Positions 8,075 through 20,193 of a stretch of DNA of 39,941 bases are shown here, piece by piece. A model generated the notes under the pieces. The model saw only the letters and a program-made list of their open reading frames with translations. It was not told where the DNA came from and ran no database searches. Both the position numbers and the translations under genes were made by a program. Positions within the stretch are counted from its first letter, which is position 1. Each line of letters starts with the position of its first letter. This stretch comes from an uncultured Alphaproteobacteria bacterium (GTDB taxonomy: Bacteria; Pseudomonadota; Alphaproteobacteria; Sneathiellales; Sneathiellaceae). The stretch lies in assembly GCA_937910835.1 (NCBI GenBank), contig CALEMG010000132.1:1-39941 (forward strand), read 5' to 3'.

Positions 8075-8093
8075 TAAAATGAGGCTGGTGGCA
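8075..8093 (+). repeat. Candidate degenerate att core (left junction)
   Basis: TAAAATGAGG-CTGG-TGGCA vs TAAAATGAGGTTCTGGCTGGGGTGGCA at 20106-20132 (tRNA 3' end and flank): 10 bp exact, then a gapped match. Confidence 0.5.
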
Positions 8094-8111
8094 TCATTCA
8101 CTTTTATATAT

Positions 8112-8124
8112 TAACTAATTGATA
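8112..8124 (-). promoter_or_regulatory. IHF-binding consensus site in the att region
   Basis: Minus strand TATCAATTAGTTA fits WATCAANNNNTTR exactly, between the putative core and the arm repeats. Confidence 0.55.
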
Positions 8125-8157
8125 TAAAACAAATTACATAAAAGTGAATTATAAATA

Positions 8158-8178
8158 TACCCCCAATTATACCCCCAA
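8158..8178 (+). repeat. Integrase arm-type sites, left end (2 x TACCCCCAA)
   Basis: Copies at 8158-8166 and 8170-8178, 12-bp period; the same motif and spacing occur at the right end. Confidence 0.75.
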
Positions 8179-8330: not shown

Positions 8331-9362
8331 TTAATCTTGATCTTCTATGATATCTGGAACATAAATCTGGCGCAGCGGAATCAGGGTCCTATAGCGAGCC
8401 GATAATTTTTCATAATGCTCAAAAATAAGTTCCACCAACTGTTCGCCGCCGATCAAACGCAGCTTAGCTTTGTTGCGCTCTAGGACCCTAGCTGGCTTGC
8501 TAAATGATCCTAGATTTACAAACAAGGCAAATTCACCCTCACCCAAGGTCCCAAGCAGCTGGCTAACCTCAGGCTCGCCGGTTTGCTCCGTAATACGTTT
8601 ACATTGAACCTTAATAATTGGCGGCTCAAACCCCAACTCATCCGTATGAGCGATAATATCAACGCCGCCATCACCTGATTTCTCGGATACTCTAGCGGTA
8701 TATCCCATACATTCCAGTAAATGCGCTGTAAAATGCTCGAATTCATATCCATTGAGCCGAGACATAATTCGCTTGATCACATAGTCATGGGTCGTCTCAA
8801 CTGCCTGCTGTGACACATTCTTGGTAATGCTAACATCATCACCACTTTCCTCATTCTCCGTCTCATCATTTTGCTCAATTTGGCCGATTTCTATTTTAGC
8901 CAAAAATTCTTTCTGATGTCTTTTGATAGCAAAAAGTGTGATGAAAGCTCCGATTTCGTAAAGAGCAGATTGTGAAAATTCGCTGCGCGGAAAATGTCCG
9001 ATCCACTCAACGCTTCTGCGGTTAGGATAGCTTTCGTCTTCCTCGCCTTCCTCGGCAGGAACAAAGAAGCCTTCACCCTTAAAGCGCCCGATGTTTACCA
9101 TCCTATCATTCTTTGATGGGTAGACCACATAGTCACCCTCCTTCACCTCATGCGCAAAGCGATAAAGGATACCAGCCTGAACCGGCAATGAGCCCTCCGT
9201 AATGTTCGGGCTCGAACTTCGAAGTGCCTCTTTATACTTTTCACGATCACCCTCAATCTTGAAAATATTCCCAATTAGCGGCCAGCTTATGCCTACATAG
9301 CCAAATTCGATTGGATCGTGGCCGACCCACTCTTGCATATGAATTCCCCATACCTGAGCCAT
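8331..9362 (-). CDS. Mrr-like (type IV) restriction endonuclease
   Basis: C-terminal Mrr catalytic domain: FEHFTAHLLECMGY, GDGGVDIIA, KVQCKR, LRLIGGEQLVELI; separate N-terminal putative recognition domain. Confidence 0.85.
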   Translation of the reverse strand: MAQVWGIHMQEWVGHDPIEFGYVGISWPLIGNIFKIEGDREKYKEALRSSSPNITEGSLPVQAGILYRFAHEVKEGDYVVYPSKNDRMVNIGRFKGEGFFVPAEEGEEDESYPNRRSVEWIGHFPRSEFSQSALYEIGAFITLFAIKRHQKEFLAKIEIGQIEQNDETENEESGDDVSITKNVSQQAVETTHDYVIKRIMSRLNGYEFEHFTAHLLECMGYTARVSEKSGDGGVDIIAHTDELGFEPPIIKVQCKRITEQTGEPEVSQLLGTLGEGEFALFVNLGSFSKPARVLERNKAKLRLIGGEQLVELIFEHYEKLSARYRTLIPLRQIYVPDIIEDQD

Positions 9363-9406: not shown

Positions 9407-12238
9407 CTAATCAACGCCATCAATAAAGGTTTCGACAAAGCTACGGATTTTATCAATAATGCGCTCCGCTGTAGTACCCCGCTCCCGCAGTGAGGGGCGT
9501 TTATCCATGATCTCAATCACCTCATCGCGCATAGGCGGTTTTTCTGTAAACAGATAGTTGCCAAGAACCTTTTCCAACCCTTCCGGGTCAAGCCCTTCCT
9601 CTTCACCCATTGTCGCTAGGGCTTTACGCTTCTCTTCTGTCCAGTAAGCATCAAACTCATCCCCAACATCCGCAGTGGCTGGCATATCGGGAAAATGCTG
9701 CGAAATAAATTTTTCGATCAGTTCCTTTTTGCTTCTGAGCTGGGCTTCAGTATCCAGAAGATCCATAATCGACTTGCGGGCTTTCGCCTGCTCTTCCGGT
9801 TTCTTATCCTGCATATTGCGAAGCAGGCCGATGATATAGCTGACATTGATTTTATCACGGCTGATCAGTTCAATCTCAAAATCAAGATCATCCAGAATTG
9901 AAATCTTCTCTTTTTCTTTTTCGCTGCGCACCTTGTCATACAAATCAAGATACTTGCTCCGGAAATCTGAAAAGAGCTGCTCACTCATAGGCAGATCGTC
10001 AAAGGTAAACTCGGTGAAGCAGTCAAGAACGTTCTTGATCCGGATAACTTCGCGGAAAGCCTGAATAAACTTCGCTTCGTCTTCTTCAGTTAAGAGCTTA
10101 TCGACACTGTCTACATCCGGGGTAATCGCGAGAAGGTTGGCAACGGCTTGCCCAAATTTCCGAACATAATCTTCATAAGGCGCGAGGATAATATCTTCCT
10201 GCGCGTCCTTATTGGCAAAAAGCTCAATGGCCTTATCCGTCGCTGGCTTGAGGTTCCGGAAACAAACGATATTCCCCTGCGACTTCTTTTGCCCCATCGT
10301 TCTGTTCGTGCGGGAATAGGCTTGCAAAAGGCCGTGGAATTTCAGGTTTTTATCAACATAGATGGTATTCAGCGGTTTGCTGTCAAAGCCTGTCAGAAAC
10401 ATGTTTACAACCAGGAGAATATCGATTTCCTTGTTCTTCACCCGCTAGCCGACATCCTTGTAATAGGCATAAAACGATTTGCTATCTTTTGTCGTGTAAT
10501 TCGTGCCGAACATCTTGTTGTAATCAGCGATATACTCATCCAGCTTTTCACGGCTATGTTTGTTCTCAGGGGCATCGTCATCCGGCATATCATCGCCGGT
10601 CCCCATGCCATCGGCATCAGCATCTTCTTCATTCGCCTGATAGGAGAAGATCGTGGCAACTTTCAGGTCATGCAGTCCCGCTTCTTTCTTGGCGCGGAAT
10701 AGCTCGTAATAGGCTGTGAGCGTTTTCACATTGGACACGCAGAACATAGCCGTGAACTCGCGGGAATGTGTTTTCCGGTCATGGTTGGCAATGATGTAAT
10801 CAGTGATTTTTTCCAACCGCTCCGGCGCCTCCATAACTTCCGCCGTATCAATCGCCTCCACTTCAATATCGACAACCTCCTCTTTCTTTTTGAAGGTGCG
10901 AATATACTCAACGGAGAATTTCAGGACATTCTCATCCCGAATGGCGTCGGTAATCACATAGCTATGGAGCTGCTTTTCAAACAGGTCTTTGGTTGTGCGT
11001 TTGCCAAGTGCGTTCTTGGCGGCGTTTTCGGCAAAAATCGGTGTTCCCGTAAAACCGAACATCTGCACATTGTCGAAATATTCTTTAATCCGCCTGTGCG
11101 TTTCGCCAAACTGGCTGCGATGACATTCATCAAAGATGAAAACCATCTTCTTGTCTTTTAGGTCATCCATTGTTTTCAAATGGCGCTTTTTGCTAATCGC
11201 AGCATTCAGCTTCTGCAATGTCGTAACGATCAGAGGCGTATCGTTCCCGAATTGCTCAACCAGCTTGCCCGTGTTGTTTGTCGCGTCAACACTGCCCTCC
11301 TGGAAGGCGTTGAACTCCGCTATGGTCTGATAGTCGAGATCCTTACGATCAACAACGAAAACAACCTTATGCACTTTGGGGTTCTGGGTAAGGATCTGCG
11401 CCGCCTTGAAAGAGGTGAGCGTCTTCCCTGAGCCTGTTGTATGCCAGATATAGCCGTTTTTATTAGTGGTCAGAACCTGTGCGACAATTGCCTCCACCGC
11501 GTAATATTGATAGGGGCGCAGCGCCATCAGCATTTTGTGGCTCTCGTTCAGGACAATGTATTTTGTGATCAGCTTGGAAAGCTGGCATTTTTCAAGGAAG
11601 ACATCCGCGAATTTGCTGAGCTGCGTTATGCGGTTATTCTGCTTGTCTGCCCAGAAAAATGTCTGCTTGAAATCCCGCTTGGTGACGGGATTGTTCGCAT
11701 AGTATTTGGTATTCACGCCGTTGCTGATCACAAACATCTGGATATAGCCGAACAATCCATAGCCCGCCGCGAAGCTGTGCCGGTGATAGCGGTTTGTCTG
11801 GTTAAACGCCTCTTTCATCTCAAGGCCGCGCCGTTTCAGCTCGATCTGGCAGAGCGGCAAGCCGTTCACCAGCAATGTCACGTCATAACGATTGGTATAT
11901 TTCCCCACCATCGTAATCTGATGCGTGACTTGGTATTCGTTCTTGCACCAATGGACCTGGTTTATCAGCTCGATATAGCCCGTCGTGCCATCATCCTTTG
12001 TATAGTCGATCTTATCTCGCAGGATTTTGGCTTTTTCGAATATATTCCCCCGCGCCAGCTTGTTCAAAACCTGCCGGAATTCATAATCAGAGAGCAAAAC
12101 CTTGTTGTGCTTTTCGAGCTGCCGCTTGAGGTTGACCAGCAAGTCCTCCTCATTGGCAATCGCAACCTTCTCCCAGCCCAGCGTTTCAAGCTGGGCAACA
12201 AGGGCATTTTCCAGTTGCTGTTCGGTCTGCGTGCTCAT
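9407..12238 (-). pseudogene. hsdR: Type I restriction enzyme R subunit, interrupted by one in-frame TAG at 10445-10447
   Basis: Nuclease RYDVTLLVNGLPLCQIELK, HTTGSGKT, DECHRS, FTGTP; then KDVG*RVKNKEIDILLVVNMFLTGFD and QAYSRTNR continue in the same frame. Confidence 0.9.
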
Positions 12239-12753
12239 TAGGGATCTGAATTGCGCTTTTTTGCTCGTTCATCGGCAATGAATGATTTCATAGCTTCAAT
12301 CATTTCTAGCGCAAAACGCTTATGATACGACAGGCTTTGATGTTCGTAAAAATAGCGAAACTCTTCAAATCCATTGCTAATTATATCCATATTTTCCTTA
12401 TATTGATCGAATGTCACGTAATTATATTTTTTCATATGAATATTAAAAATAGCGGTCTGGGCGTCTTCAGGAAGTTTCTCAAAAAGTTTCCTGATGTTAT
12501 GACCTCTTTGCTTTCTACCTATCACTTCAAAAACTGCTTTAATGTATAGTTCAACAGCAAATGCTAAGCAGACAAAATCTGCAACACCTATTTGTTGATC
12601 TGTTGCATATCCAATTTCTTCTACTTTATCTTCAGGGTTTTCAGCGTTATGTCTTCGCGCTCTCTCCACTCGAAGCCTAATTAACTCGTTATCATGACGT
12701 TCCAGAATATAGAATGAGTTTAGAAAATGCTCTGCTTGCGTTGTTATTGCCAT
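12238..12753 (-). CDS. HEPN-like protein B embedded between hsdS and hsdR
   Basis: LAFAVELYIKA, GHNIRKLF, RYFYEH resemble HEPN helices/motifs; ATG 12753 follows AGGGGGTG; stop overlaps hsdR start (TAATG). Family call is by eye. Confidence 0.65.
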   Translation of the reverse strand: MAITTQAEHFLNSFYILERHDNELIRLRVERARRHNAENPEDKVEEIGYATDQQIGVADFVCLAFAVELYIKAVFEVIGRKQRGHNIRKLFEKLPEDAQTAIFNIHMKKYNYVTFDQYKENMDIISNGFEEFRYFYEHQSLSYHKRFALEMIEAMKSFIADERAKKRNSDP

Positions 12754-12765
12754 ATTGAACACCCC

Positions 12766-13944
12766 CTACACGAACATCTGTTGCAAAAGGCCTTTTTTAA
12801 AAATCTTGGCTTTATTCAGCTCTCCAGAAACCAGTGCGATTTTGTTGTCAATTTCAGATAAAAAATCAGCGATTTTCTTTTGTTCGTCTAGGTGCGGTAT
12901 TGGAAGGGCTATCTCTTTAAGAATGCTGAAGTGTCGCTTATACCCTTCTGCTTCAACATTGAAGAATTGTAACGCGTAGTATAGATATCTTATCTTGTCC
13001 CCTTTGGAGCTAAGTATTTTTGTACCATCTGCGCCAACCACGAATTTAAAATCTAAAAATTTGACTGCCGTTGTGTGATCACCAAAAATTACTACAGGGA
13101 TCTCTTTTGCGTTAAAAATCTTATTTTCTTGATCTGTGTAGCCTGCTATAGAGCTTTGTCCCTGATCAACTACAGGAATTTCCCCAGTCTCCAAAATTTC
13201 GTTGCTTTTTATTTGAAACCGCTTGGTTGGAATTGGCGAAAATGCGTTTGCAACCGTTTTTTTACCCCAATCAGGGAAGGGGTTGCCGTTGTCGTCGGTG
13301 AAGCGGATAGCCTGAGAAAAGAGCTTTTGCATACAGCCCTTTTTATAGACCTCCAGCAGGTCTTTCTTTTTCTGGAGCTGGGCAATCTTCTCATCCACCG
13401 CCCCCAAAAACGCCGCGATTTTTTTCTGTTCGGGAACTTTGGGAAAGAAAAATTTATAGCTACGAAGCTTTTCAAGTGTAATTCTTGTGATCGCCTGTCC
13501 CGCAATAGACTCCAAAATTCTTCTCTGACCGTTGCCCGAGGCTAAAATTTGATAAAGAAAAGAATGCAAACATTTTTCTGGATTAGCTCTTAAAAAAGCT
13601 ACACTAGATAATAAGCTAAATGGCTCTTTCAATGTATTAATACATACGTTTCCTGTACTAGCTCCATCTTTAGTAAGCAAAACATCGTTTTCCGATACAT
13701 CACATCGCTTGTAAATATTACGGTGCTCATGCTCACTTACAAAGGATACATCGTTTAAATCTAAATACCCCATACGAATATTTTTTGACGTTATATATAA
13801 ATACTTACCGTCTTCAGTAAGCTGCGGCGAAAAATGTGTTCCATCTTGAATTTTTGACGTAACAGCATTTAGAGCCAAATAATGCCAATCCCCATCAAAC
13901 TCAGGAAATCTTAACGCGGGAGTATTCTGCTCTTGCTTTGGCAT
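12766..13944 (-). CDS. hsdS: Type I R-M specificity subunit
   Basis: PALRFPEF start, two TRDs each followed by EQKKIAxFL...KKG(C/L)xQxxF repeats. Confidence 0.95.
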   Translation of the reverse strand: MPKQEQNTPALRFPEFDGDWHYLALNAVTSKIQDGTHFSPQLTEDGKYLYITSKNIRMGYLDLNDVSFVSEHEHRNIYKRCDVSENDVLLTKDGASTGNVCINTLKEPFSLLSSVAFLRANPEKCLHSFLYQILASGNGQRRILESIAGQAITRITLEKLRSYKFFFPKVPEQKKIAAFLGAVDEKIAQLQKKKDLLEVYKKGCMQKLFSQAIRFTDDNGNPFPDWGKKTVANAFSPIPTKRFQIKSNEILETGEIPVVDQGQSSIAGYTDQENKIFNAKEIPVVIFGDHTTAVKFLDFKFVVGADGTKILSSKGDKIRYLYYALQFFNVEAEGYKRHFSILKEIALPIPHLDEQKKIADFLSEIDNKIALVSGELNKAKIFKKGLLQQMFV

Positions 13945-13947
13945 CGC

Positions 13948-15537
13948 TTACCCCTTCAAACCAAACGGGGCTTTAATACCAAGCTCTTCGCAAAATCCGG
14001 CGATGACACTATCCGTTTCCTCTATTCCATCCTCAAGCTGGATAAGCTCGTTCGCCACAGCCTCCAGATCGACCGGCTCTTCCTCCTCAAACGTATCGAC
14101 ATAGCGCGGAATGTTGAGGTTATAGCCGTTTTCAGCAATCTCAGCTAATGGCGCGGCGTAGGCGTATTTGTCAACGCTCTCCCGCTTGGCATAGGCATCG
14201 ACAATCTTTTGAACATGAAGATCGGTCAGCCTGTTTTTATTGCCCTCTTTTTCGAAGTCCGCGCTCGCGTCAATAAACAGGATATCGTCATCCTGCTTGC
14301 GGCATTTTTTCAGCACCAGAATACAGGCGGGGATGGACGTGCCGTAAAACACATTCGGCGGCAGGCCAATCACCGCATCCAGATAGTTTTGATCCTTGAT
14401 AATATATTCGCGGATTTTCCCCTCCGCTGCGCCCCGAAACAGCACGCCATGCGGCAACACAACCGCGCCTGTGCCATTATCCGCCAGTTGGTAAATGATA
14501 TGCTGCACGAACGCGAAATCCGCCTTTGACGTCGGTGCAAGCGCCCCATATTGACTGAACCTGTCATCGGTTTCATTGAGCGGGTTATCCTTGCCCTTCC
14601 ACTGCGCCGAGAACGGGGGATTGGCGACAATCGCCTCAAACTCCATGCCTTCATGCTGCGGCTCCTCCAGTGTGTCTTCCTGACGGATATCAAAGCGGCT
14701 GTAATGCACGTCATGCAGGATCATATTCATACGGCAGAGGTTATAGGTAGTGCGGTTAAGCTCCTGCCCGAAAAATTCTCCCACCTTGGTTTCCCTGCCA
14801 ATCCGCAAGAGCAATGAACCCGATCCGCAAGCCGGGTCATAGGCGTTTTTAATCTGCCCCTTGCCCATGGTGACAATCTTGGCCAGAACTTTTGATACTT
14901 GCGCCGGTGTATAAAATTCCCCCGCCTTTTTACCCGCGCCCGATGCAAATTGAGCGATCAGATACTCATAGGCATCCCCCAGAACATCGGAGTCAATTTC
15001 CTCAAGCCGGAAATCCACCGCATCAAGATGCGCGAGAACTTTGGCGATCAGGTTATTGCGCGCGTTGGGGCTACGCCCAAGCTTCGTGCTGGCAAGATCG
15101 ATATCTTCAAAGAGCTTGTTAAAATCATCCTCGCTCTCGTTCCCCATCGTGCTTTGCTCGATGGCGTTGAGGATGGATTGCAGATCTTCCAGAATGAAGT
15201 TGTCGGTGGCTTCCTCATCATCCTCATCAATCTTGATGTTGCCCTTTATGGTGAGGGCGCTGAACAGCTCATCCGGGCGCAGGAAATAGCCCAGCTTTTC
15301 CAGGGATTCTTCCTTGATCGCATCAAGGTCTTCCTCATCCTTCAGGTGCGCGTAGTCCTTAATGCTTTCGGTTTCCAGCAATCTATTGGCAAAGAGATTC
15401 TGCTTTTCAGACAGGTATTTATAGAAAATAAAGCCAAGAATATAATCGCGGAATTCATCCGCCCCCATCTTGCCCCGCAATTCGTTAGCGATCTTCCAAA
15501 GCTGGGCTTCAAGCTTTTGCTTCTGTTCTTCTGTCAT
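13948..15537 (-). CDS. hsdM: Type I R-M methyltransferase subunit
   Basis: LWKIANELRG, GEFYTP, YDPACGSGSLL, VANPPFS, VLPHGVLFRG, YNLNIPRYV. Confidence 0.97.
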   Translation of the reverse strand: MTEEQKQKLEAQLWKIANELRGKMGADEFRDYILGFIFYKYLSEKQNLFANRLLETESIKDYAHLKDEEDLDAIKEESLEKLGYFLRPDELFSALTIKGNIKIDEDDEEATDNFILEDLQSILNAIEQSTMGNESEDDFNKLFEDIDLASTKLGRSPNARNNLIAKVLAHLDAVDFRLEEIDSDVLGDAYEYLIAQFASGAGKKAGEFYTPAQVSKVLAKIVTMGKGQIKNAYDPACGSGSLLLRIGRETKVGEFFGQELNRTTYNLCRMNMILHDVHYSRFDIRQEDTLEEPQHEGMEFEAIVANPPFSAQWKGKDNPLNETDDRFSQYGALAPTSKADFAFVQHIIYQLADNGTGAVVLPHGVLFRGAAEGKIREYIIKDQNYLDAVIGLPPNVFYGTSIPACILVLKKCRKQDDDILFIDASADFEKEGNKNRLTDLHVQKIVDAYAKRESVDKYAYAAPLAEIAENGYNLNIPRYVDTFEEEEPVDLEAVANELIQLEDGIEETDSVIAGFCEELGIKAPFGLKG

Positions 15538-15632: not shown

Positions 15633-16658
15633 TCATGCAAAACCAATCTTGGCCTCCGAAATAATCCGTCTTTGTTCCATCACAGACAACTGACCATAGC
15701 TGTTGAGCGTTGTATCAATAGACATATGCCCCAGGTTCTGCCGGACAGCATTCAGGAACGCCGGGCTTTGAGACTCTGCATATCGCGCCAATGTCTTGCG
15801 GAAGGAATGGGGTTTGATATATCCGTACCCCGCACTTTCAAACGCATTTTTGAATATACCCCTGATTGTAGTGTTAGACTTGATTTCCTCTTTTTTGATT
15901 TTCTGTTCAAGCAGATTATTCCGCGCGAAATGATTGTCAACTCGCGGGAAAAGAGGATCTGAATCCTTGAAACCCAAAGTGCCCAAGTATCCATGCCACT
16001 CAATTACGCTGGCGATAACGTCATCCGGAAGCGGAATAAAAACCGCATGACGCGTTTTGGCGAATTTGACGCTCATGTTCTTCGGGGTGACATAGATAAA
16101 ATACTGCCCGTCTTCCTCAACCAGGCTGTTCATTTTCACCGTTCGCAATTCCGAAATGCGAAGCGTACTTAGTGCTTGCAGGGATATGATCGCTTTATCA
16201 CGCTTTTCCTTATCCGTATCGCCCGGCATTTGGCGGATTGTCTGGATGATCTGATCATATTTATACGCCTTTTGGTATTCCGCCGCCTTTGCCGTTTTCC
16301 GCTGATTCCGGGAAACATTCAGATAATCAATATGATTGTAGTTGATCTTGCTGCGATAACCGCGCTGGCGCTCCAGCCAGTTTAGAAAATCTTTGAGGGC
16401 GCGGATATTATCGGTGATATAGGAAAGCGAGAGATTGGCGCTAAACATCCCTTGGATATATTTGTCCGCGACGTAATCGTTGAATTTCTCAAATCCCGCA
16501 AATCTCATGAAGATCTCGAAATCACGAATATGCTTCAGGGCTGCAAGAATAGTCTTCTCATCCTTCTGGCCAATGCGCCGCAAATGTTTGCGATACTTAT
16601 ATTTCATGCGCTCACTCACAGGGTTGTACTGATCCGGATTTTTGTCACGTTTCTTCAA
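15633..16658 (-). CDS. Tyrosine recombinase (second, non-P4 type)
   Basis: Catalytic set visible: LRISE (R), VKFAK (K), HSFR, LGH, SYG (Y); start overlaps the upstream gene's stop by 4 nt. Confidence 0.85.
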   Translation of the reverse strand: MKKRDKNPDQYNPVSERMKYKYRKHLRRIGQKDEKTILAALKHIRDFEIFMRFAGFEKFNDYVADKYIQGMFSANLSLSYITDNIRALKDFLNWLERQRGYRSKINYNHIDYLNVSRNQRKTAKAAEYQKAYKYDQIIQTIRQMPGDTDKEKRDKAIISLQALSTLRISELRTVKMNSLVEEDGQYFIYVTPKNMSVKFAKTRHAVFIPLPDDVIASVIEWHGYLGTLGFKDSDPLFPRVDNHFARNNLLEQKIKKEEIKSNTTIRGIFKNAFESAGYGYIKPHSFRKTLARYAESQSPAFLNAVRQNLGHMSIDTTLNSYGQLSVMEQRRIISEAKIGFA

Positions 16659-18258: not shown

Positions 18259-18723
18259 TTATCGTGCACGCTCTGCATCAGAGGCAGATTTCACGGACTC
18301 TATGAGAGCCAAGACAAACGATTCTTCATACTTTAACATCTGTTTTTCGTGAGCATAACGCCACTCTTTAAAGCCATTGCTTATTGTTCTTATTTGATCA
18401 ACGAACCGATCATAAGGAGTGTAGGCCTTATCATATAGTTTAGGTGAAAAGATATCCCCTCTGGTGTTGAATGGGTTTTGACGGATAGAATCGTGAGCAA
18501 AAATCTCTTGCTTGATTTGTGACGGTAACATTTCAAAAAGTTTTATGATGTCATGGCCACGAGGCGCTTTACCTTTCAGTGCTGAATGAAGCTCTTTAAA
18601 ATAAAGCTCTAGCGAAAATGCCAAGCATACGACGCTTGGACCAACTATGAGCTCGCTATGGTTTTTCAATACTTTGTAAGCATTAAAAAAGTCATCGGCT
18701 TGTATCCGTATATGCCAAGACAT
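18259..18723 (-). CDS. HEPN-like protein A, directly after the integrase
   Basis: VCLAFSLELYFK, RGHDIIKLFEMLP, ISNGFKEWRYAHE; clear paralog of 12238-12753; ATG abuts the integrase TAG. Confidence 0.65.
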   Translation of the reverse strand: MSWHIRIQADDFFNAYKVLKNHSELIVGPSVVCLAFSLELYFKELHSALKGKAPRGHDIIKLFEMLPSQIKQEIFAHDSIRQNPFNTRGDIFSPKLYDKAYTPYDRFVDQIRTISNGFKEWRYAHEKQMLKYEESFVLALIESVKSASDAERAR

Positions 18724-19953
18724 CTAAGCTTTCTTTCTATTTACAAAATCTCCAGAAATTGTAACTCCACTATTAGCAACTTCATCTAGATAATCAGCCC
18801 ATTCCTGCATCATAACCTTGCGTTCATTGAGGAACAAAGCCCGGTCATAAGCTTTGTCGATCTTGTTTCGCGGAACATGGGCAAGTTGTCGGTCAACGAC
18901 CTCGTGTCGATAACCAAGCTCCTGTTTAATGCCACTCATTGCCAGAGCCCGAATACCATGACCAGTCATGCGGCCCTGATAGCCGAGACGCTTCAGCGCC
19001 CCCAGTATCGTATTATTACTGATCGAATTACGTGGCTTGACGCTGCTGGGAAAAACCAGTGGCCAGTGCCCGGCAAGAATTTTCTGATTTTCAAGCACCT
19101 CAATTGCCTGTCGGGATAGCGGAACAATATGTTCCCTTCCCATCTTCATCCGTTCCGTCGGGATAATCCATTCTTTCTTGTCGAAATTGATTTCCTCCCA
19201 TCTTGCGTTAATCAGCTCACTCGTGCGCACGAACGTCAGCATAATCAGCTTGAGAGCGTTCCGGGTACTTTGATAAAGCCGGGCATCGTTTCTTTCCAGT
19301 GCCGCAATAAACTCCGGCAACTCCCCTACATCCAATGCCGCGAAGTGTTCCTTCTTAACCGGTTTTAAGGCTTCCTTGATATCCTGAGATGGATCGCGCT
19401 GCGCTTTACCAATCGCAATCGCATACCGGAAAATTTCACCGCATTTTTGCAGTTGTCGCTTTGCCAGTTCATGCGCCCCGCGATTCTCTATTTTCCGGAT
19501 GACTTGCAACAGCAACGGCGGTTCAATTTCCAAAATCGGAAAACTGCCAATCTCCGGAAATATATCTTTTTCAAGTCGGGTGATAATCTCTTCCGCGTAT
19601 CGCTTCCGCCAGCGGCTTTTGCGATTGTCGTACCATTCTCGTGCAATTACTTCGAAAGTGTTTTCGGCATTCTCTTTCGCTAATGCCTTTTTTTTCTTCT
19701 TATCCTGAGAGGGATCAATTCCATTCTCCAGCAATTTGCGAGCACGGAGGAGCCTACCCCTTGCTTCTGCTAATGAGGTTTCTGGATATACCCCCAAAGC
19801 CAGAAGCTTTTCCTTGCCGACAAACCGATATTTATAACGCCAGTATTTGCTGCCATTAGGCCGGATCTCCAGATAAAGGCCTTTTCCATCGGACAGCTTA
19901 TAAGCTTTTTCCTTCGCTCCTGCCTTCTTGATTTTGATATCGGTTAGCGGCAT
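18724..19953 (-). CDS. P4-family tyrosine integrase with N-terminal arm-binding domain
   Basis: MPLTDIKIK..YKLSDGKGLYL..GSKYWRYKYR..LALGVYP; FVRTSEL, MKMGREH, HGIR, LAH, AY. Confidence 0.95.
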   Translation of the reverse strand: MPLTDIKIKKAGAKEKAYKLSDGKGLYLEIRPNGSKYWRYKYRFVGKEKLLALGVYPETSLAEARGRLLRARKLLENGIDPSQDKKKKKALAKENAENTFEVIAREWYDNRKSRWRKRYAEEIITRLEKDIFPEIGSFPILEIEPPLLLQVIRKIENRGAHELAKRQLQKCGEIFRYAIAIGKAQRDPSQDIKEALKPVKKEHFAALDVGELPEFIAALERNDARLYQSTRNALKLIMLTFVRTSELINARWEEINFDKKEWIIPTERMKMGREHIVPLSRQAIEVLENQKILAGHWPLVFPSSVKPRNSISNNTILGALKRLGYQGRMTGHGIRALAMSGIKQELGYRHEVVDRQLAHVPRNKIDKAYDRALFLNERKVMMQEWADYLDEVANSGVTISGDFVNRKKA

Positions 19954-19954
19954 T

Positions 19955-20007
19955 TTGGGGGTACATGATTTTTGGCATTTTCAATGTACCCCCAATCTTA
20001 CCCCCAA
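19955..20007. repeat. Integrase arm-type sites, right end (one inverted, two direct TACCCCCAA)
   Basis: TTGGGGGTA 19955-19963; TACCCCCAA 19987-19995 and 19999-20007. Confidence 0.75.
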
Positions 20008-20118: not shown

Positions 20119-20193
20119 TGGCTGGGGTGGCAGGATTCGAACCTGCGCGTGACGGGATCAAAACCCGCTGCCTTACCGCTTGGCTACACCCCA
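20119..20193 (-). tRNA. tRNA-Gln(TTG)
   Basis: TGGGGTGTAGCCAAGCGGTAAGGCAGCGGGTTTTGATCCCGTCACGCGCAGGTTCGAATCCTGCCACCCCAGCCA: cloverleaf, TTG anticodon, GTTCGAATC T-loop, CCA end. Confidence 0.97.

What the first reader, a model, noticed from the sequence alone, without database searches (positions are those of the whole stretch)
12238..12753. Small HEPN-like gene hard-wired between hsdS and hsdR: candidate R-M-guarding toxin
Seen: an AT-rich 171-codon ORF starts 12 nt after hsdS and its stop overlaps the hsdR start (TAATG), so it is part of the hsd operon. It has HEPN-like blocks (LAFAVELYIKA, GHNIRKLF) and RYFYEH, which fits Rx4H. Known: the anticodon nuclease PrrC (ABC-ATPase + HEPN) occupies this slot in EcoprrI and fires when the R-M complex is attacked. 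Inference: this could be a minimal, ATPase-less back-up effector tied to a type I R-M system. No nucleotidyltransferase antitoxin is visible anywhere in the island.
Basis: partly seen in the sequence, partly recalled or inferred. Interest (0 to 1): 0.8.

Follow-up and report, generated by a model that had tools for sequence, protein, structure and literature searches.

The report
Roaming HEPN gene inside restriction operon
This small gene inside a DNA-restriction operon encodes a HEPN-fold protein whose relatives turn up in prophages and defence islands but not in this position, so it is likely a swappable, stand-alone anti-phage cargo gene (predicted to cut RNA, untested) and not a dedicated guard of the restriction enzyme.

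Summary
The ORF is real: 171 codons, 12 nt after hsdS, TAATG overlap with hsdR, 36% GC, HEPN fold (Pfam PF05168 above cut-off; best structural matches TT1696, AF0298, sacsin). (1) The Rx4H is incidental: H138 is kept in 19 of 139 homologues, while E68, K72, H85, R133, Y134 are near-invariant, the 'alternative histidine' HEPN-T signature. (2) It is not hard-wired to hsd: 0 of 49 non-redundant family loci have an hsd gene within 1.5 kb. The closest hsd operons have the slot empty (HsdR 86%, 79%, and a ~91%-nucleotide contig) or hold other cargo (Abi_C, Fic, PrrC); 0 of 27 carry this family. The nearest relative with context is an antisense insert in a prophage. A second, separately acquired paralogue follows the island's integrase, and hsdR has an in-frame stop in this assembly. 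Best reading: an MNT-less solo HEPN-T, probably a single-gene anti-phage RNase, carried as cargo in a known defence hotspot. The arrangement is published, and this scan noted it before in other genomes. The family is absent from PADLOC, NCBIfam and PHROGs, and its activity is untested.

The parts
12238..12753 (-). Focal gene: 171-aa solo HEPN-T (PF05168-type) protein; conserved E68-x3-K72, H85, F129-x3-R133-Y134-x-[YH]-E137; H138 not conserved
12766..13944 (-). hsdS, type I specificity subunit
   Evidence: Methylase_S, Specificity_I
13948..15537 (-). hsdM, type I methyltransferase
   Evidence: N6_Mtase + HsdM_N, MTase_I
9407..12238 (-). hsdR (EcoR124_C domain), interrupted by an in-frame TAG at codon 598
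10445..10447 (-). In-frame stop in hsdR; a real nonsense mutation or an assembly error (not resolved)
   Evidence: all 15 homologues aligned have a sense codon here; contigs of related operons in 3 of 3 runs differ at 10447
8331..9362 (-). Mrr-like nuclease, PADLOC candidate PDC-S02
   Evidence: Mrr_cat; PDC-S02 E 4e-131
15633..16658 (-). Second tyrosine recombinase of the island backbone
   Evidence: PF00589; recurs in L009, L016, L017
16655..18172 (-). Two backbone ORFs (171 aa, relatives carry HTH_17; 216 aa, no family)
18259..18723 (-). Second member of the same HEPN family (154 aa, 38% identical over 123 aa, ends RYAHEK), abutting the integrase stop; a different clade
18724..19953 (-). 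Integrase with Arm-DNA-bind_3 and Phage_int_M domains (P4-like label recalled)
20119..20193 (-). tRNA-Gln; the island lies at its 3' end
8075..8178 (.). Left end of the ~12-kb island: degenerate copy of the tRNA 3' end (read by eye) and a 31-nt repeat, 84% identical to 19977-20007

Best explanation
The gene encodes a stand-alone HEPN-T protein that moves independently of R-M genes and here occupies the variable hsdS-hsdR slot; it likely acts alone as a single-gene anti-phage effector, predicted to form a homodimer that would cut host or phage RNA once infection switches it on. SHOWN: HEPN fold; invariant E68/K72/H85/R133/Y134 and no conserved Rx4H; no MNT, ATPase or fixed partner gene beside relatives; independence from hsd genes; the slot is variable. 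PREDICTED: a homodimer through helix 1 and the start of helix 2. INFERRED: R133 with the alternative H85 (and E68) forms the active site, as proposed for AF0298-like HEPN-T; the protein is latent without an antitoxin and is switched on by a phage protein or infection stress, as HepS is; RNA cleavage stalls translation and aborts infection. In this operon it would borrow hsd transcription and translational coupling and add a second layer of defence without sensing the state of HsdMSR. My odds: conflict/defence role about 0.65, RNase chemistry about 0.45-0.5.
For: Fold: AF2 pLDDT 87.9; VIA-align Z 11.9 1ufb (rmsd 2.4, 112 aligned), 10.3 4nqf, 10.1 2hsb, 10.1 sacsin 3o10; the top nine rows are HEPN-family entries; the A2 profile aligns E-x3-K and GH to TT1696, weakly (E 0.048). 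Motif over 139 homologues: E68 139, K72 138, H85 136, R133 136, Y134 137, E137 132, H138 19. PMC3710099 proposes an alternative active site with an upstream H for such proteins (passages). Context: 0 of 49 loci with hsd within 1.5 kb and 0 of 49 with an adjacent MNT motif. By my reading of the neighbours scanned, 23 of the 35 loci with both flanks lie by a defence, TA, prophage or integrase gene: retron Ec67 (L003), GmrSD (L012), AbiE plus QatA (L024), AriAB-like (L088), BrxC/D-TerB (L086), terminases (L001, L089); 6 of the 9 from genome samples drawn without regard to context. Two viral contigs carry it 2-3 kb from a portal gene, resembling the P2 hotspot of PMC9122126. Integrase within 6 kb: 6 of 25 long loci against 116 of 1555 own-genome windows (rough). 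Dimer: ipSAE 0.52, best control 0.00; mark reached by 20 of 30 solved pairs and 1 of 23 single chains; runs agree in at least 88% of contacts, pLDDT at least 79; HEPN dimers are solved, so this may be likeness. Precedent: HepS, a solo HEPN that is latent and triggered by a tail protein (PMC13043305).
Against: No activity data. PF05168 (class II) HEPNs lack RX4H and had not been studied biochemically as of PMC7641770. HepS and AbiV both use an Rx4-6H, so the precedent is for the logic, not the chemistry. 11 of 35 loci showed no defence or mobile neighbour among the genes scanned and one was ambiguous; that composite count has no matched background, and kin are not independent. The integrase HMMs were built from these same loci. 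Several copies are broken or partial (L019, L020, L021, own-genome C191 fragment). I had no coordinates, so H85-R133 geometry was not measured, and neither residue is among the confident dimer contacts. No trigger was identified.
Confidence: 0.5

Rival explanations
1. Orphan class II HEPN with no RNase role: a nucleotide- or RNA-binding protein, or a toxin-antitoxin remnant, that drifts as near-neutral cargo through mobile elements, the hsd slot being one tolerant landing site.
For: No conserved Rx4-6H. Class II HEPNs have no recognised RNase motif (PMC7641770), and PMC3710099 notes motif-less HEPNs may be non-catalytic. About a third of loci sit among housekeeping or unknown genes; some copies are broken.
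Against: Five residues are invariant across 115 sequences down to 20% identity, as expected of a catalytic or ligand site under selection. No adjacent MNT motif at any of 49 loci, so these are not recent TA remnants. Recurrent placement in prophage and defence slots.
Confidence: 0.3
2. PrrC-like guard: the protein is held silent by HsdMSR and released when a phage anti-restriction protein attacks the complex.
For: It sits in the PrrC slot with tight translational coupling. PrrC or a fragment occupies the same slot in 4 of 27 related loci. PMC3710099 proposes this logic for R-M-linked HEPNs and lists HEPN-T as clustering with R-M operons. Three family loci have hsd genes 3-8 kb away.
Against: PrrC is almost exclusively embedded in type I RM (Payne preprint); this family is so in 0 of 49 other loci, including its four closest relatives with any context (L001, L002, L022, L023). 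The most similar hsd operons lack it. No ABC-ATPase or other extra domain. hsdR is interrupted here while the HEPN is intact (weak, one assembly).
Confidence: 0.08
3. A toxin kept off by an unseen partner: a small RNA, as in AbiV, or a nucleotidyltransferase acting in trans on the conserved Y134.
For: AbiV, once grouped with the alternative-His HEPN-T proteins, has an RNA antitoxin. The conserved Tyr of class II HEPNs was suggested as adenylylatable. AbiEii nucleotidyltransferases lie near 3 loci (L011, L021, L024).
Against: Only 12 nt upstream and an overlap downstream, so no room for a separate RNA gene here. Upstream neighbours differ between loci. No PF18765 match in the own genome, though that search is insensitive: the same search with PF05168 missed the focal gene.
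Confidence: 0.12

Closest known systems
HEPN-T / class II HEPN (PF05168; TT1696 1ufb, AF0298 2hsb, TM0613, sacsin HEPN); PMC3710099, PMC7641770 (passages read)
   Same: Pfam match above cut-off; best structural matches; E-x3-K, upstream alternative H, RY in place of Rx4H; standalone copies and R-M clustering already noted in 2013.
   Different: Longer (150-190 aa; extended helix 1 and an insert), own F-x3-RY-x-[YH]-E tail, never seen beside an MNT in 49 loci, found on mobile and defence elements.
Defence genes embedded in type I RM operons (Payne et al., 10.1101/2024.01.29.577857; DarTG2 between hsdS and hsdR, PMC12255303; passages read)
   Same: Unrelated cargo in the hsdS-hsdR slot; the slot is described as a potential recombination hotspot for defence systems.
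   Different: This family is not among the PADLOC 2.0 models (0 of 115 members). The preprint's supplementary family lists were not seen and could include it.
PrrC of EcoprrI (PMC3710099 and Payne passages)
   Same: Same slot of a related type I operon; HEPN superfamily effector.
   Different: No ABC-ATPase, no conserved Rx4-6H, no family-level linkage to hsd, no PADLOC PrrC hit.
HepS of prophage Gifsy-1 (PMC13043305, passages read)
   Same: Single-gene, single-domain HEPN carried as accessory cargo with no antitoxin; the best model for how it could work.
   Different: HepS has a canonical RX4H and is a tetramer; structural similarity is only Z 6.6, rmsd 4.2, 7% identity.
AbiV (10.1101/2024.05.05.592566, passages read)
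   Same: Small solo HEPN abortive-infection protein; the paper notes that R and H are not strictly conserved in its family.
   Different: Z 5.7 only; uses an RNA antitoxin and R91/H97; no Pfam or PADLOC AbiV match.

Membership tests
HEPN-T (PF05168) | Pfam PF05168 score above the curated cut-off | tested here: met
   27.5 against 22 bits; the paralogue is below cut-off at 15.8
HEPN-T (PF05168) | HEPN helical fold, closest to 1ufb/2hsb | tested here: met
   Z 11.9 rmsd 2.4 112 aligned; Z 10.1 rmsd 3.1 117 aligned; Foldseek best E 9e-3, same entry
HEPN-T (PF05168) | E-x3-[KR] in helix 2, conserved upstream H, R without the +4-6 H | tested here: met
Canonical HEPN RNases (HepT, HepS, PrrC) | Conserved Rx4-6H | tested here: not met
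   H138 in 19 of 139; the nearest H column (136) is R+3 and is H in 53, Y in 66
Canonical HEPN RNases (HepT, HepS, PrrC) | RNase activity | not testable with these tools
   needs biochemistry
Canonical HEPN RNases (HepT, HepS, PrrC) | Homodimer | tested here: inconclusive
   Model supports it (0.52 against 0.00) but may reflect likeness to solved HEPN dimers
PrrC | N-terminal ABC-ATPase | tested here: not met
   171 aa, all-helical, no ATPase family; no PADLOC PrrC hit
PrrC | Nearly always embedded in type I hsd operons | tested here: not met
   0 of 49 other loci
PrrC | Position between hsdS and hsdR in this locus | tested here: met
PrrC | Silenced by HsdMSR, released by anti-restriction proteins | not testable with these tools
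   no complex with Hsd subunits was modelled; needs experiment
HEPN/MNT toxin-antitoxin (class I or II) | Adjacent MNT gene with GSX10DXD | tested here: not met
   none among island ORFs; no motif in same-strand frames within 300 nt at 49 loci
Catalogued defence systems (PADLOC 2.0, NCBIfam 20.0) | Match to a system model | tested here: not met
   PADLOC 0 of 115 members; NCBIfam 0 of 8 members scanned; PHROGs 0 of 5; DefenseFinder not available
Type I RM-embedded cargo | Slot empty or differently filled in orthologous operons | tested here: met

The most novel reading that the evidence does not exclude
An uncatalogued, widespread, MNT-free branch of class II (PF05168, sacsin-like) HEPN proteins is a single-gene anti-phage RNase that uses a non-canonical E/H/RY active site in place of Rx4-6H and hops between prophage accessory sites, integrase ends and R-M slots. 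It would be a partner-free test of whether Rx4H-less HEPN-T domains are nucleases at all.
Probability: 0.4. Interest if true: 0.62.

Novelty: new member of a known kind. Interest (0 to 1): 0.36.

Why it matters
As an R-M guard it would have been a minimal PrrC analogue, but the genomics argue against that. What remains is a usable candidate: a small gene with no partner, absent from the defence catalogues searched, with a clean set of invariant residues. The 2013 proposal that AF0298-like HEPN-T proteins have an alternative active site, and the 2020 remark that class II HEPNs were biochemically unstudied, can be tested on it without an antitoxin in the way. The locus also shows how readily the hsdS-hsdR slot gains and loses cargo.

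Tried and rejected
Sequence search of PDB with the single protein gave only noise; the profile reached 1ufb at E 0.048, below two chance hits. Foldseek gave no E <= 0.001. tblastn of plasmids and phages: no match. Search for longer or fused forms: none among 7995 candidates, weak evidence; 14 longer hits showed no informative second domain. Own-genome searches for PF18765 and PF05168 were both blank, so that route is too insensitive to show absence of an MNT. No run held the stretch itself (share 0.05, no RNA holder listed), so expression and the hsdR stop could not be checked on this strain; lack of cover over the HEPN gene is not used, only the contig that joins across it. Promoter and terminator scan: at chance level. 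The careful tree did not finish; the quick tree is quoted, built without 23 duplicate loci and without domains under 95 aa. No other genome of the family (0 of 38) had this hsdR. Rejected: RYFYEH as Rx4H; a recent duplication as the origin of the two island HEPNs (38% identity, separate clades); MNT-HEPN TA; AbiV or HepS membership. 17 plasmid hsdR hits listed (H6, H7, H11-H25) and 1034 unlisted were not opened; P0002-P0005 and P0008 were not themselves placed on DNA. Nine literature searches listed no paper on this subfamily; most subscription papers are outside that library and no supplements were read.

Full report
OBSERVATION. The ORF is at 12753-12238 on the minus strand, 171 aa. It starts 12 nt after the hsdS stop and its TAA overlaps the hsdR ATG. 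It is AT-rich (35.9% GC; genome 53%). Its neighbours are hsdM, hsdS and hsdR. The cluster lies in a ~12-kb island at the 3' end of tRNA-Gln with an integrase, a second recombinase and an Mrr-like PDC-S02 gene.

FOLD. Pfam PF05168 scores above cut-off. The AF2 model (pLDDT 87.9, six helices) matches TT1696 (Z 11.9, rmsd 2.4, 112 aligned), 4nqf (10.3), AF0298 (10.1) and sacsin HEPN (10.1). Middling Z is common for helical bundles, but the top nine rows are HEPN-family entries, and the ESM Atlas agrees (0.94). A homodimer is predicted through residues 6-20 and 53-65 (ipSAE 0.52, best control 0.00; mark reached by 20 of 30 solved pairs and 1 of 23 single chains; runs agree in at least 88% of contacts, pLDDT at least 79; may be likeness to solved dimers).

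MOTIF. A profile search found 2034 clusters at E <= 0.001 and 171 at 1e-10; the weaker ones may include ordinary PF05168 proteins. I aligned the 139 of 179 fetched proteins that were 130-240 aa long: E68 139, K72 138, H85 136, R133 136, Y134 137, E137 132, but H138 only 19. The paralogue ends RYAHEK. So RYFYEH is not a conserved Rx4H. The pattern is the one PMC3710099 describes for AF0298-like HEPN-T: R present, H absent, and a second conserved H upstream that could form an alternative site (passages). PMC7641770 calls PF05168 proteins class II, says they lack RX4H and had no biochemical study (passages). RNase activity is therefore an inference.

IS THE FAMILY TIED TO HSD? After removing duplicates and own-genome copies, 49 loci remain: 35 with at least 500 nt on both sides, 12 on one side, 2 on neither. 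None has an hsd gene within 1.5 kb; three have one further off. L088 also has a short ORF 2.8 kb away that I read by eye as an HsdM end; no profile hit it. The closest relative with context (67%, L001) is an antisense insert between a methyltransferase and the large terminase of a prophage; L022 (69%) shares its upstream sequence; L023 (57%) lies near a primase-polymerase and integrase; L002 (57%) lies among unknown genes. In the quick tree the focal protein groups with these (SH-aLRT 98) and the paralogue groups apart (99) with other integrase-adjacent copies, so the island likely gained the family twice. By my reading of the neighbours scanned, 23 of the 35 lie by a defence, TA, prophage or integrase gene, 11 do not, and 1 is ambiguous. 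Only selected neighbours were scanned and this count has no matched background. The one control run is rough: integrase within 6 kb in 6 of 25 long loci against 116 of 1555 own-genome windows, with profiles built from these loci. No adjacent MNT motif at any of the 49.

IS THE SLOT TIED TO THIS FAMILY? I examined 27 loci with a related hsdR. None carries this family. In 9 hsdS abuts hsdR (4 of these hsdS calls are by eye), including the two closest: G447 (HsdR 85.8%) and a Sulfitobacter plasmid (78.6%). Nine hold other cargo: Abi_C in G323 (78.3%), an Abi-family protein, SoFic, DUF2971 plus Fic, an RNA-binding-domain protein, three PrrC and one PrrC fragment. Nine have no hsdS in the flank fetched. 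In run X2 one contig about 91-96% identical on its two matched sides joins the hsdR start to the hsdS centre with 564 letters between, room for the second half of hsdS only. This matches the literature: type I RM operons often hold embedded genes, with PrrC singled out as almost exclusively embedded (Payne preprint, passages), and the hsdS-hsdR site is called a potential recombination hotspot (PMC12255303, passages).

HOW IT MOST LIKELY WORKS. Shown: a partner-free HEPN-T with an invariant charged set, moving among mobile and defence sites. Inferred: it dimerises, R133 and H85 with E68 make an RNase site, it rests inactive and is switched on by infection, and RNA cleavage stalls translation. 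HepS shows that this logic works for a solo HEPN (PMC13043305, passages), though with a canonical motif. In this operon the gene would use hsd expression and add a layer without sensing HsdMSR. I give this 0.5, a non-catalytic orphan 0.3, an unseen antitoxin 0.12, and the PrrC-like guard 0.08. The hsdR stop fits independence from HsdR, but it comes from one assembly; all 15 homologues aligned have a sense codon there and related contigs in 3 of 3 runs differ at that base, so it is either recent or an error.

NOVELTY. The arrangement is known, and standalone HEPN-T near R-M operons was noted in 2013. Earlier notes of this scan reached the same cargo reading in other genomes; none concerns this protein. 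The subfamily has no model in PADLOC (0 of 115), NCBIfam or PHROGs, and nine paper searches listed nothing on it; DefenseFinder and the Payne supplements were not seen. Other papers consulted as passages: AbiV preprint, PMC13000451 (nothing on class II), PMC9122126. Verdict: real gene, right fold, wrong motif, not an R-M guard; a reasonable untested defence candidate. Interest 0.36.

Noticed in passing
window 18259-18723 (-): Second HEPN of the same family directly after the integrase stop. The integrase-HEPN pairing recurs in L009, L016, L020 and L091, and with one gene between in L017; several go on to a second recombinase and R-M cargo. It looks like an island backbone with a built-in HEPN.
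   Followed up: partly
window 10445-10447 (-): In-frame TAG splits hsdR at codon 598, so restriction may be off in this strain; mutation or assembly error unresolved.
   Followed up: partly
L070 5024-12658 (G011, same genus): The same island backbone (integrase 90% identical, HEPN paralogue, recombinase) after the same upstream genes, but carrying a type ISP R-M gene instead of hsdMSR.
   Followed up: partly
own genome C449 7168-15898: A second island in this genome with an integrase, a recombinase and relatives of both backbone ORFs, but no HEPN match.
   Followed up: no
L051 1498-1689 (own genome C191): A 64-aa fragment of the same HEPN family between an OprB porin and other genes: a third, decayed copy.
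   Followed up: no
window 8331-9362 (-): Mrr-like nuclease matching the PADLOC candidate PDC-S02 (E 4e-131) just downstream of hsdR.
   Followed up: no
L003 6229-8531: Family member 84 nt downstream of a retron Ec67 RT-Toprim gene on the same strand.
   Followed up: no
L087, L088, L089 HEPN genes: A divergent subgroup (tree support 95) with long, variable N-terminal extensions; in L089 the open frame runs into an upstream phage-like region beside HNH and terminase genes.
   Followed up: no
L097 1216-3471: An apparent HsdM-HsdS fusion (752 aa) directly before hsdR on a viral contig.
   Followed up: no
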